64,000 nt of DNA from Dendrobates tinctorius (Eukaryota), in the NCBI RefSeq assembly GCF_039654945.1, contig NW_027361825.1, positions 35,402,001 through 35,466,000 of the forward strand, given 5' to 3'. A program made the position numbers. Positions 32,801 through 35,800 of the stretch are shown one piece after another (within the stretch, counting starts at the first letter, position 1; each line of letters starts with the position of its first letter).

Positions 32801-35800
32801 GAACTTGCACTATTGCTGACTGACTAAATACTTTTTTTCCCCACTGTATAAAAGCAAGACAGTGGGACCCACAGCCACACCCAACATGCCACCCAAGAAA
32901 GCAACCAAGCGAAGCAGGAGAAGGCAGGAGACCACTGCAGCACCATCAGCACCACCACCACCCCAAATGGAGCAGCAAATGGAACATGCTGAGGAGGGGA
33001 GGCCAGCAGCAGATGAGAGACGGTAATTATCAAATCCCCCATTCCTCCAAACTAGGGCTATTGAATATCAAGATATTCATTGGCCCTTTGTTTCTCTTTA
33101 TTCAACAGCCGCCCAATAGATGCAGCAGCAGCAATGGCAGCAGCTGGAACACCACCCACAGGCATGGAGTCTGGCCAGCAGGAAGACAGCACATCATCTT
33201 CTGGGAGCCCTCCCTCGCATCGTCAGCGTTTGACGGTAAGTTTTTATTTCCAAAATCCATCATCTCTGTAATATATGTCTATTCATTGCCTTTTATTTCA
33301 AAACAGTATTCACAAGATGAAGAGGAGCTCCCAGAAGAAGAAGGAAGGGGTGGACAGACACCTGGAGTGGGCTCACAATTGGTAAGTTTTTTGCATCAAA
33401 CGCAGAAACACAACATCACACTACACACAACACATAGAAAACAATGTTCTGCAGACCACACACAGCAAACAAATGCCTACATCCAAAGACATAACATTTT
33501 TTGTTTTCTTCTCTAGTCTTCCCAATCTGGTGCTCGGCCAAGAGGTCCTCGCAGTGCCTCCCAGGGTCGTCGGCGACAGCAACGCGGCGGTCACCAGCGT
33601 GTAAGTATAAATATTTTTGCTTTGTTTTTTTGCACTTTTTATTTCATTTCTTTTGTGGAGGCTAATTATGTTATTTTTGTCTTTTTCTTTAACAGCCTTC
33701 ACAGCGTGCTCCCGACTCTGACGGTGAGGATGGAGGACTCGATGTGGACCACCTCATCGATCTCGTCAGAGAAAGGGAGCCGCTCTGGAATATGGCTGAC
33801 CGCCGCCACGCTGACCTTATCGTTACCCGACGACTCTGGGAGGAAATCTGTTCGCTCCTTGTGGGCCGCTGGGAGGACCTCGATGTTCGGGCCCAGATTA
33901 AAGAGCGTAAGTATATACAGTACCGGTTGCTTGATGTAAACCAGTGTTTCCCGAACTCCAGTCCTCGTGGTCCCCACGGATCATGTGTTCAGGATTTCTA
34001 TTTCTATTTACTATGGAAATCCTGAAAACATGACCCCTGGGGACCATGAGGACTGGAGTTTGGGAAACACTGATGTTGTATACTAACCACTCCTTTCTCG
34101 TTTCAGGGAACAGAATTGTGAATCGGTGGCGGTCTGTGAGGGATCGTTTCAAGAAGGAGTTCAATAAAGAGATGCGGGCCCCGAGTGGATCTGGAGGACG
34201 CAGGAGCAAGTACAAGTACGCAGAAGCCCTGTCGTTCCTCCGGGAAACAATGGTCACTAGAAGGTAAATATTACACACCACATGTGAAAAAAAATGTTAG
34301 ATGTAAATTTTTTTTTTCAGCCAGGGCCATACCATGTCAGTATTTTAATTGTTTTTTTTTTCTCTTTATTCCACAGCACGGTGAGCAGCACTCGGGAGCC
34401 TGCACGATTGGACCCTTCTGAGGCGATCCCTGAGGAGACCGGCACCGAGGGACACTTCGACCGCCCCGGTACATCTGCACCTTCCCACACATTCGACCCA
34501 TCTGTCCCATCCACCAGCACAGGAGCATCGTGGCCGCCTACATTACATGAAGCTGCTGGTGAGGAGATCGCTTTCCCTTTACCCCACCCTTCTGCCCCTG
34601 CCACCTCTAGTACACCTGCGGGTACTGGGCGGCAGCGGCAGAGGGGTCAGGAAAAGACTTATGCGCCAGAGTTCTTGCATCTGAATGCATCTTTCCAGAA
34701 CTGTCTAAAAGTCTTGTCAGAGCAAATCACCGCAGGCTATCAGCAGATCAACTCCAGCATTCTGGAGGTGAAGACACTTCTGCAAACCATGCATTCAGAA
34801 GCAAGATCTTCGCCAAACCACACCTTTTTCAGGTCTGTTGTGGAGCGCATGGAAACGCTCTCTCCTGCCCAGCAGATGCATGTAATGCATTCATGCCACG
34901 CTGCTCTCCAGCAAGTTACCTCCCAACCTCCTCCCACCACAGTAGTTCCTCCACCTGCACCCCCTCCAGCCACTTTCCATCCTCCCCCTCCTATTACATA
35001 CCATCCACCTCCCCAGCACCAGCAACCTCCCCAGCACCAGCAACCTCCCCAGCACCAGCAACCTCCCCAGCACCAGCAACCTCCCCAGCACCAGCAACCT
35101 GCCCCGTACCAAACTCCTTCCCCATACAACTTGCCATCAACATCATCTGCTCCTACAGTCCCTGCCCAACCCTCCACTCCACCACCCACCACCTCTTCTG
35201 CTTCCCACATGTCCACCCATTCTGTAGTTTTTTCCACACCTTCACCTCTAAGGCCTCTTTCACACATCAGTTTTTTGCCTTCAGGCGCGATCCGGCTTTT
35301 TTTGGAAAAAACGGATCCGGCAAAATGCAATGCCGGATCCGGTTTTTCCCCATTGACTTGCATTAGCGCCGGATCGTGCCGGATGGCATTGCGTTTCATC
35401 CGTTTTTTGCCGGATCCGGCAACTTGTCTCATTCCGGCGTCTTGAAAAAACGTCTACTGTAACGTTTTTTGTCTCCGGCGAAAAAGCCGGAAGCGCCGGA
35501 TCCGGCGCTTCCAGCTTTTTGCTACAATGAAAGTCTATGGGCGCCGGATCCAGAAAAAGACGGATCCAGCAACCGGACCCGGTTTTTTTAAGTCTGCGCA
35601 TGCTCAGATCCAATTGGCCAGCCTCCAGGAACAGAGACGGATCCAGCAAAAAAACGGATCCGTTTCTACAGTTCTCAAAAATTTATGCTGGATCCGTTTT
35701 TTCTAAAAAAAGCCGGATCATGCCTGACAGCAAAAAACTGATGTGTGAAAGTAGCCTAACTGTTCCTTCCCCACCACGATCCCAGTCCTCTCTCCACACT

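What the first reader, a model, noticed from the sequence alone, without database searches (positions are those of the whole stretch)
32886..35445. Seven-exon Harbinger Myb/MADF gene still open while its partner transposase is dead
Seen: seven GT-AG exons join in phase to 1860 nt (~619 aa). The protein has a basic N-terminus (PPKKATKRSRRR), an acidic/RG-rich linker, a MADF domain, a BESS-like segment and a P/Q-rich tail. The convergent transposase has at least two frameshifts. Known: Harbingers need both a Myb/SANT protein and a DDE nuclease, and such genes were domesticated in vertebrates (HARBI1/NAIF1, MSANTD family). Inference: this copy could still supply a DNA-binding protein for the many CGGATCCG-rich Harbinger MITEs, including several in this window. 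The ORF track misses this gene because its exons are short.
Basis: partly seen in the sequence, partly recalled or inferred. Interest (0 to 1): 0.68.

Follow-up and report, generated by a model that had tools for sequence, protein, structure and literature searches.

The report
Decayed two-gene Harbinger transposon in frog
This is one young but already broken copy of a two-gene Harbinger "jumping gene" in a poison-frog genome; its DNA-binding gene looks open only because the reading frame runs on into a small transposon that landed inside its last exon, so the finding is essentially ordinary.

Summary
The seven-exon model is real. The exons have GT..AG borders, sum to 1860 nt in phase, and all six junctions recur in public gene models of paralogues. 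Exons 5 and 6 carry the two halves of a MADF domain.

The gene belongs to a complete PIF/Harbinger element at 30865-38061, with 46-bp TIRs, a TAA duplication and CCGGATCCGG subterminal repeats. The element is nested in a hAT element of a dendrobatid frog, probably Dendrobates tinctorius.

"Still open" is only half true:
- The native last 35 residues, which hold the family's conserved C-terminal motif, lie beyond the MITE and carry a further frameshift.
- A Tc1 element sits 37 bp upstream of the ATG.

The copy differs from its nearest paralogue by 1 of 207 residues, so an open frame is expected from youth alone. Expression, dN/dS and DNA binding could not be tested.

This is a new member of a known kind, of low interest.

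The parts
30862..30864 (.). Left target-site duplication TAA of the autonomous Harbinger
   Evidence: Read. The same TAA lies at 38062-38064.
30865..31239 (+). 5' end of the Harbinger: 46-bp TIR (30865-30910) and a subterminal region with 8 GGATC-core sites, mostly CCGGATCCGG
   Evidence: The TIR matches the other end at 43 of 46 positions. Sites are listed. The 19-mer TIR pattern gives 6 matches against 0.02 expected.
31242..32846 (+). Nested Tc1/mariner element flanked by TA (31240-41 and 32847-48), 37 bp upstream of the MADF gene's ATG; intact 340-codon transposase ORF at 31607-32626
   Evidence: The 212-bp terminal repeats are 99% identical. Pfam gives HTH_SB 81 bits, HTH_Tnp_Tc3_2 82 bits and DDE_3 59 bits. 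Flanks were read.
32886..33022 (+). Exon 1: ATG and basic N-terminus (PPKKATKRSRRR)
   Evidence: The junction to exon 2 is matched by paralogue model P0195.
33109..33235 (+). Exon 2
   Evidence: P0195.
33307..33381 (+). Exon 3, acidic
   Evidence: P0195 and P0012.
33517..33600 (+). Exon 4, Arg/Gly-rich
   Evidence: P0195 and P0012.
33696..33906 (+). Exon 5: N-terminal half of the MADF domain (33753-33899)
   Evidence: PF10545 profile positions 1-49, 21.1 bits. Family profile nodes 123-191.
33942..34072 (.). 131-bp palindromic element inside intron 5 (intron 33907-34106)
   Evidence: 60-nt arms, 90% complementary.
34107..34263 (+). Exon 6: C-terminal half of the MADF domain (34115-34240)
   Evidence: PF10545 profile positions 45-84, 28 bits. 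Family profile nodes 193-243.
34377..35251 (+). Native part of exon 7: disordered linker, helical module with the BESS-like stretch (about 34660-34932; BESS-like 34825-34884), and a P/Q-rich region with an in-frame 18-bp x 5.4 tandem repeat (35007-35104)
   Evidence: Family profile nodes 245-522 of 561. BESS 14.4 bits against a cut-off of 21. In the fold of paralogue P0026 the helices score pLDDT 83-90. Tandem repeat.
35252..35756 (+). Harbinger MITE inserted in exon 7 (TAA duplication 35249-51 / 35757-59).
   Evidence: 82.5% identical to the element's 5' end over 361 bp and 75% to its 3' end. Same TIRs. Paralogues read straight across the insertion site.
35760..35864 (+). Severed native 3' end of exon 7. 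It codes for the conserved C-terminal motif but changes frame near 35800; the native stop is at 35862-35864.
   Evidence: tblastn places P0009 aa 311-328 in frame 2 (35750-35803) and aa 318-348 in frame 3 (35769-35861). Translation.
36367..37247 (-). Transposase exon 2 with the DDE_Tnp_4 core; frame change at 37103-37107
   Evidence: PF13359 97.4 bits. 99% identical to P0075 over 246 aa.
37248..37397 (-). Transposase intron (150 nt, GT..AG on the minus strand)
   Evidence: Read. It appears as a gap in the tblastn alignments of intact relatives.
37398..37715 (-). Transposase exon 1; about 9 codons are missing (not a multiple of three) with a frame change at about 37488-37501
   Evidence: Residues 1-76 of P0077 align in frame -3 and residues 83-165 in frame -1; residues 77-82 are not covered.
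37716..38061 (-). 3' end of the Harbinger: subterminal region with 6 GGATC-core sites and the right TIR (38016-38061)
38062..38064 (.). Right target-site duplication TAA
18216..18818 (.). Second, more distant Harbinger MITE of the window (TTA duplication)
   Evidence: TIR pattern matched with 2 mismatches at both ends. 68-69% identical to the element's 5' end and to the nested MITE. 4 CGGATCCG sites. Flanks read.

Best explanation
The region is part of one full-length, recently inserted but already inactivated copy of an autonomous PIF/Harbinger transposon (30865-38061) in a dendrobatid frog genome.

Intact members of the family carry two convergent genes:
- a seven-exon gene for a nuclear MADF-type DNA-binding protein, made of a basic N-terminus, a MADF domain, a helical BESS-like module, a P/Q-rich linker and a conserved C-terminal motif;
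- a two-exon DDE transposase gene.

By analogy with zebrafish Harbinger3_DR and rice Ping/Pong, the MADF protein most likely binds the CCGGATCCGG repeats in the subterminal regions and brings the transposase into the nucleus and to the ends. This step is inferred, not shown.

In this copy both genes are damaged:
- The transposase has two frame changes.
- The MADF gene has a Tc1 element 37 bp upstream of its ATG.
- A Harbinger MITE in its last exon replaces the last 35 native residues, including the conserved C-terminal motif, with 64 MITE-encoded residues.
- The severed tail carries a further frameshift.

The 1860-nt open frame is therefore a truncated gene fused to MITE sequence. It is open because the copy is young, not because it is maintained.
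For: Element:
- TAA duplications lie on both sides, and the 46-bp TIRs match at 43 of 46 positions.
- All 18 CGGATCCG sites of the window (0.18 expected) fall in the two ends of the element and in two MITEs.
- DDE_Tnp_4 scores 97.4 bits, and the two MADF halves lie on exons 5 and 6.

Gene model:
- A family profile built from 66 relatives is covered without gap or overlap by exon 5 (nodes 123-191), exon 6 (193-243) and exon 7 (245-522). The two split codons fill nodes 192 and 244.
- Paralogue models P0195 (exons 1-4) and P0012 (exons 3-7) use the same six junctions.

Damage:
- Paralogue P0008 aligns up to 35250, exactly at the MITE. It resumes after the MITE in a second frame and then a third.
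- Profile nodes 523-561 are not covered by the ORF.
- The C-terminal motif ends 23 of 66 relatives, and V331, S340 and T341 are invariant in the 24 aligned.
- The transposase is read in frames -3, -1 and -2.
- The Tc1 has TA flanks and 99% identical ends.

Youth:
- Exon 7 differs from P0011 by 1 substitution in 207 aligned residues, plus two in-frame indels.
- The window is sister to P0011 with a terminal branch of 0.0056 (44 of 66 rows used).
- The transposase is 99% identical to P0075.
- At 0.25-1% divergence from the master copy, P(no stop in 552 codons) is 0.86-0.54 under neutrality.

Context:
- The element lies inside a hAT element, not beside a host gene.
Against: - The 1656 nt upstream of the MITE carry no lesion at all, and the window matches the family consensus at the most conserved (capitalised) positions of the MADF and helical modules.
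- If the four lesions (three frame changes and the MITE) fell at random over about 3.0 kb of coding sequence, missing that stretch has P of about 0.04 (0.09 for the three small ones).
- A truncated protein with an NLS-like N-terminus, MADF and helical module could still bind DNA.
- The Tc1 duplication leaves TATAAAAG next to the gene, so transcription is not excluded.
- No expression data and no DNA of other copies were available, so neither transcription nor dN/dS was tested.
- The role of the C-terminal motif is inferred from conservation only.
Confidence: 0.8

Rival explanations
1. One reading: the copy still supplies a working MADF DNA-binding protein in trans for the family's MITEs and for copies with an intact transposase.
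For: - The MADF domain, the helical module and the basic N-terminus are unbroken and match the family consensus at the conserved positions.
- The MITEs share the TIRs and the co-linear CCGGATCCGG sites.
- Supply of the MADF and DDE functions from separate loci is described in C. inopinata (PMC13668399, passages).
- Ping and Pong ORF1 and transposase are interchangeable at 62% and 77% identity (PMC2836001, passages).
Against: - The conserved C-terminal motif is lost to the MITE, and the severed tail is frameshifted.
- A 1.6-kb Tc1 separates the gene from the 375 bp between the TIR and the gene, where the promoter would be expected.
- The openness is explained by youth.
- Many other copies exist, so nothing singles this one out: 66 relatives, six of them 500 aa or longer with both a MADF N-terminus and the C-terminal motif.
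Confidence: 0.12
2. The truncated protein acts as a competitor. It still binds the subterminal repeats but cannot recruit the transposase, so it damps transposition of the family, in the way truncated products repress other DNA transposons (that comparison is recalled, not from a call).
For: - The DNA-binding part is intact while the conserved C-terminal motif is missing.
- The fold of paralogue P0026 shows only two folded modules and a disordered C-terminus, as expected for a short docking motif.
Against: - There is no evidence of expression.
- There is no evidence that the C-terminal motif is the transposase-binding part. Second-hand passages say only that the Myb-like protein contacts the N-terminal end of the transposase (PMC9392472).
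Confidence: 0.05
3. A domesticated host gene derived from a Harbinger Myb-like gene, of the NAIF1 / MSANTD / ADF-1L kind.
For: - Such domestications are known in vertebrates (PMC9392472; PMC11893794).
- The frame is open for 552 codons.
Against: - TIRs and the target-site duplication are intact, and the broken transposase is still attached.
- The family is multi-copy with near-identical paralogues.
- The locus is a nest of transposons inside a hAT element.
- The C-terminus is destroyed.
Confidence: 0.01

Closest known systems
Harbinger3_DR of zebrafish (reconstructed element; Sinzelle et al. 2008, known to me only through passages in PMC9710019, PMC9392472 and PMC2836001; the paper itself is not held)
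   Same: Both have two genes (a DDE transposase and a Myb-like DNA-binding protein), a 3-bp duplication and short repeated motifs in the subterminal regions. In Harbinger3_DR the Myb-like protein binds a 9-bp subterminal motif, binds the transposase and is needed for its nuclear import.
   Different: Here the DNA-binding domain scores as MADF (PF10545) and is followed by a BESS-like helical module and a conserved C-terminal motif. The gene has seven exons, and the candidate site is the palindrome CCGGATCCGG. Binding was not tested here.
Harbinger-1M_cIno family of Caenorhabditis inopinata (PMC13668399, passages read)
   Same: Both are PIF/Harbingers with a MADF gene and a DDE gene. Most copies are decayed, and the MADF and DDE functions are proposed to be supplied in trans from different loci. 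MITE-like derivatives keep the ends.
   Different: In the nematode, MADF-only derivatives are short deletion products that have amplified. Here a full-length copy has lost both genes through frameshifts and nested insertions.
Ping/Pong and mPing of rice (PMC2836001, passages read)
   Same: ORF1 (Myb-like) and the transposase are both required. Tourist-type MITEs are mobilised in trans, and related elements cross-mobilise.
   Different: This is a plant lineage. ORF1 is not of the MADF type according to those passages, and activity is shown there by experiment, which has not been done here.
Drosophila MADF-BESS proteins (Adf-1, Stonewall and others; PMC5982830 seen in a search listing only)
   Same: An N-terminal MADF domain is followed by a short helical motif that scores as BESS.
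   Different: BESS is below Pfam's cut-off here (14.4 against 21 bits; 22 of 66 relatives at E <= 0.1). Those proteins are host transcription regulators, not transposon genes.
Domesticated vertebrate derivatives: HARBI1/NAIF1, MSANTD1-4 (PMC9392472), ADF-1L of a teleost fish (PMC11893794)
   Same: They descend from Harbinger genes, and ADF-1L is of the MADF type.
   Different: Those are single host genes without TIRs. This one sits in a complete transposon and belongs to a multi-copy family.
Harbinger MITEs of Xenopus tropicalis such as Harbinger-N12A_XT (PMC12676858, passages read)
   Same: Frog Harbinger MITEs of a few hundred bp with TIRs and palindromic internal repeats.
   Different: The relationship is unknown.

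Membership tests
PIF/Harbinger superfamily (autonomous element) | 3-bp target-site duplication, usually TWA | tested here: met
   TAA at 30862-64 and 38062-64. The nested MITE has TAA/TAA and the MITE at 18 kb has TTA/TTA.
PIF/Harbinger superfamily (autonomous element) | Terminal inverted repeats | tested here: met
   46 bp, 43 of 46 complementary. The 19-mer gives 6 matches in the window against 0.02 expected.
PIF/Harbinger superfamily (autonomous element) | DDE transposase of the DDE_Tnp_4 / Plant_tran type | tested here: met
   PF13359 97.4 bits and PF04827 48.6 bits on 36370-37134(-). 1254 relatives at E <= 0.001 among 1368 candidates. The gene is broken by two frame changes.
PIF/Harbinger superfamily (autonomous element) | Second gene for a Myb/SANT/MADF protein | tested here: met
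   PF10545 halves on exons 5 and 6. 46 of 66 relatives carry MADF.
PIF/Harbinger superfamily (autonomous element) | Both proteins required for transposition; the Myb-like protein binds the ends | not testable with these tools
   Known for Harbinger3_DR and Ping/Pong from passages.
MADF-BESS architecture | N-terminal MADF domain | tested here: met
   Full-length paralogue P0026 scores 48.2 bits over profile positions 1-84.
MADF-BESS architecture | BESS motif above the family threshold | tested here: inconclusive
   14.4 bits against a cut-off of 21 in the window. 22 of 66 relatives match at E <= 0.1, best 0.0047. The best ESM Atlas hit scores 0.89 for a cluster in which 37% of members carry BESS; below 0.9 this is only a lead. 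The stretch lies in a confident helix of the P0026 model.
Domesticated Harbinger-derived host gene (NAIF1/MSANTD/ADF-1L kind) | Loss of transposon ends and of the partner gene's transposon context | tested here: not met
   TIRs, the duplication and the attached transposase are all present.
Domesticated Harbinger-derived host gene (NAIF1/MSANTD/ADF-1L kind) | Single-copy orthologue under purifying selection | tested here: not met
   The family is multi-copy: 66 relatives, several at 91-98% identity within one species. Selection itself could not be tested because no DNA of other copies was available.

The most novel reading that the evidence does not exclude
The family is still mobile in Dendrobates: copies differ by 1% or less, and MITEs of the same family have landed inside this young copy. 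This locus would then express a C-terminally truncated MADF protein that still occupies the CCGGATCCGG repeats but cannot recruit the transposase, acting as a home-grown repressor of a currently active vertebrate Harbinger.
Probability: 0.05. Interest if true: 0.5.

Novelty: new member of a known kind. Interest (0 to 1): 0.18.

Why it matters
As a single locus it matters little. It is one decayed copy in a nest of transposons, and it shows that an "open" multi-exon ORF can be an artefact of a frame running on into a nested MITE.

At family level it has modest value.
- It documents a young, probably recently active two-gene Harbinger family in poison frogs, with a clear candidate binding site (CCGGATCCGG) and a conserved C-terminal motif of unknown role.
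- The D. tinctorius genome paper does not mention Harbinger or PIF in its main text (0 occurrences).
- My three searches for the family in print found no description of it.

A naturally active vertebrate Harbinger would be a useful model, but that is not shown here.

Tried and rejected
- Complex prediction.
- The listing of cluster members for 10 distant relatives, to learn their taxa: the database was switched off. The range of the family outside Dendrobatidae therefore stays unknown. The representative search gave only counts: 69 at E <= 0.001, 35 at <= 1e-10, 18 at <= 1e-30.
- Fold search of the P0026 model against the PDB: 0 matches at E <= 0.001; the best was the Zeste DNA-binding domain at E = 3.
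- Fold search of the P0077 transposase model: 0 matches at E <= 0.001; the weak top hits (E 0.02-0.1) are DDE integrases and transposases.
- Profile of A1 against PDB sequences: 0 matches at E <= 1.
- Rfam on 28000-39000: 0 matches.
- Pfam on exons 1-4: 0 families.
- Search with exon 1: only 1 relative.
- Sinzelle et al. 2008 is not held, so it is used second-hand only.
- dN/dS could not be done. No collection with frog DNA is open and the window holds no second coding copy; tblastn outside the element gives only low-complexity hits.
- Domestication was considered and rejected (see the rival explanations).
- The spliced full-length protein was never joined, searched or folded. Natural paralogues stood in for it.
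Full report
**Scope and method.** The window is frog DNA, not human. All 66 relatives of the exon 7 product come from four dendrobatid species, and the best are 83-94% identical proteins of Dendrobates tinctorius. I never joined, searched or folded the spliced sequence. Where a full-length protein was needed I used natural paralogues from the database. The N run at 63281-63433 was left alone.

**The observation.** Seven segments with GT..AG borders lie at 32886-33022, 33109-33235, 33307-33381, 33517-33600, 33696-33906, 34107-34263 and 34377-35445 (read).
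- Their lengths (137, 127, 75, 84, 211, 157, 1069) sum to 1860 nt. The phases fit, and no whole codon is a stop before 35443-35445.
- Four of the six donors read GTAAGT, and all six acceptors follow a pyrimidine tract.
- Pfam finds the MADF domain in two complementary halves: profile positions 1-49 on exon 5 (21.1 bits) and 45-84 on exon 6 (28 bits).
- A profile built from the 66 relatives is covered without gap or overlap by exon 5 (nodes 123-191), exon 6 (193-243) and exon 7 (245-522). The two split codons account for nodes 192 and 244.
- Public gene models of paralogues use the same junctions: P0195 for exons 1 to 4 and P0012 for exons 3 to 7. I do not know how those models were made or whether transcripts support them.
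- BESS is only a sub-threshold match: 14.4 bits against a cut-off of 21 in the window, and 22 of 66 relatives at E <= 0.1. An ESM Atlas hit of 0.89, below that tool's own 0.9 bar, points to a BESS-bearing cluster.

**What the gene sits in.** The gene is one of two in a complete PIF/Harbinger element at 30865-38061.
- TAA is duplicated on both sides, and the 46-bp TIRs match at 43 of 46 positions.
- All 18 CGGATCCG sites of the window (0.18 expected; 0 of 100 shuffles reach 18) fall in four clusters: the element's 5' end, its 3' end, a MITE at 35252-35756 and a MITE at 18216-18818. The window therefore holds two MITEs, not several.
- The motif is mostly CCGGATCCGG. There are 8 GGATC-core sites in the 5' 375 bp and 6 in the 3' 346 bp.
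- The whole Harbinger is nested in a hAT element (28197-38241) with 17-bp TIRs and an 8-bp duplication ATGAATAC.

**The transposase.** Intact relatives of about 410 residues align to the minus strand in three frames: residues 1-76 at 37715-37488, 83-165 at 37501-37103 across a 150-nt intron (37397-37248), and 165-410 at 37107-36370.
- The first break is a loss of about nine codons that is not a multiple of three. The second is a small indel.
- In a confident model of relative P0077 (pLDDT 81.8), the breaks fall in the N-terminal helical region and just before the first strand of the catalytic fold.
The DDE_Tnp_4 core itself is unbroken (97.4 bits).

**The MADF gene is damaged too.** It has three lesions.
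The MITE has the family's TIRs, is 82.5% identical to the element's 5' end over 361 bp and 75% identical to its 3' end, and is flanked by TAA. Paralogues read straight across the site ('STPSPL-TVPSPP'), and their alignment to the window stops at 35250. So 64 of the 619 residues and the stop codon are MITE sequence.
- *Frameshift in the severed tail.* The native end resumes at 35760 and changes frame once more near 35800. The native stop is at 35862-35864.
- *What is lost.* The last 35 residues carry a motif of the form P-x-(V/I)-(E/D)-V ... S-P-S ... I-S-T-(P/Q)-x-(Y/F)-x-x-(L/I) at the C-end. This motif ends 23 of 66 relatives, among them the six models of 500 aa or more that carry a MADF N-terminus and reach a native C-end, across subfamilies only 41-50% identical to the D. 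tinctorius copies. I picked those 24 rows for alignment by a pattern on the last eight residues, so the conservation of that part is partly circular; the invariant Val upstream was not in the pattern. Among 59 further unnamed representatives, 1 carries the motif and 2 carry a variant one residue longer.
- *Tc1 upstream.* A Tc1 element with an intact 340-codon ORF (31242-32846, TA flanks) lies 37 bp upstream of the ATG. It separates the gene from the 375 bp between the TIR and the gene. The paralogue model P0195 starts ten codons upstream of the window's ATG, so I infer that transcripts of intact copies start at or upstream of the Tc1 site.

**Age.**
- Over the part of exon 7 that is homologous, the window differs from P0011 by one substitution in 207 aligned residues and two in-frame indels.
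- It is sister to P0011 in a tree, with a terminal branch of 0.0056. That tree used 44 of 66 rows; the other 22 did not span residues 10-175.
- The transposase is 99% identical to P0075.
- For 552 whole codons, 3.8% of random substitutions make a stop. At 0.25-1% divergence from the master copy the chance of no stop is 0.86-0.54. An open frame is therefore the neutral expectation.
- Against this, the four lesions all miss the first 1656 nt, which has P of about 0.04 if they fall at random. The region was chosen because it is open, so I give this little weight.

**How the family most likely works (inferred).** The fold of full-length paralogue P0026 shows only two folded modules: MADF (residues 90-196) and a three-helix module (319-411, pLDDT 83-90) that holds the BESS-like stretch. 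The rest is disordered, C-terminus included. Passages on Harbinger3_DR and Ping/Pong say the Myb-like protein binds subterminal motifs or TIRs, binds the transposase at its N-terminal end and brings it into the nucleus, and that both proteins are needed. The likely scheme here has four parts:
- the basic N-terminus imports the protein into the nucleus;
- MADF binds the CCGGATCCGG repeats;
- the helical module or the C-terminal motif holds the transposase or a host factor;
- MITEs with the same ends are moved in trans.

None of these steps was tested. The complex prediction that would have probed the C-terminal motif never got past a full queue.

**Comparison and novelty.** The element meets every sequence criterion of PIF/Harbinger that could be tested, and it fails those of a domesticated gene (see the membership table).
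- MADF-type second genes, trans-supply of MADF and DDE from separate loci, and vertebrate MADF derivatives are all in print (PMC9710019, PMC13668399 and PMC11893794; passages read).
- The D. tinctorius genome paper does not mention Harbinger, PIF or MITE in its main text. My searches found no description of this frog family, and I could not see Repbase. I therefore file it as a new member of a known kind.

**Verdict.** Interest is low.

Noticed in passing
28197-38241: A hAT element (17-bp TIRs CAGGGCTGTGGAGTCGG, 8-bp duplication ATGAATAC) hosts the whole Harbinger. Its own ORF (28719-30744, +) is split over several frames, and Dimer_Tnp_hAT scores 27.6 bits at its end. The nest is four levels deep: hAT > Harbinger > Tc1, MITE and palindromic element.
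   Followed up: partly
31242-32846: The nested Tc1/mariner (Sleeping Beauty-like) copy has an uninterrupted 340-codon transposase ORF (31607-32626) and 212-bp ends that are 99% identical. It may be a potentially active copy. A diverged fragment lies at 63613-63915.
   Followed up: partly
P0075 (public D. tinctorius model, not in the window): A model named 'MIS12 homolog isoform X1' joins 58 unrelated N-terminal residues to exon 2 of a Harbinger transposase 99% identical to the window's. Either the transposase acceptor site has been exonised or this is an annotation chimera. Several other relatives bear host-gene names in the same way.
   Followed up: partly
35007-35104: A perfect in-frame tandem repeat of an 18-bp unit (5.4 copies, PPQHQQ) lies in exon 7. 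The paralogues P0008-P0010 do not show it.
   Followed up: partly
33942-34072 and 36103-36274: Two palindromic elements, probably further small MITEs. One is 131 bp (60-nt arms) and fills most of intron 5. The other is 172 bp (58-nt arms) and lies between the 3' ends of the two genes.
   Followed up: no
1-1341, 1338-2099, 3052-7076, 13374-14785, 47731-49224, 60427-61233: Long tandem arrays with periods of 48, 70, 43, 36, 87-93 and 40 bp. The one at 3052-7076 has 94 copies. They explain the strong GC-skew blocks and the low-complexity tblastn hits.
   Followed up: no
C-terminal motif of the family (alignment A3, last 35 columns): The conserved (V/I)-(E/D)-V-(V/S) core followed by Ser/Pro resembles a SUMO-interaction motif with a phospho-serine tail. 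This resemblance is recalled from memory and was not tested.
   Followed up: no
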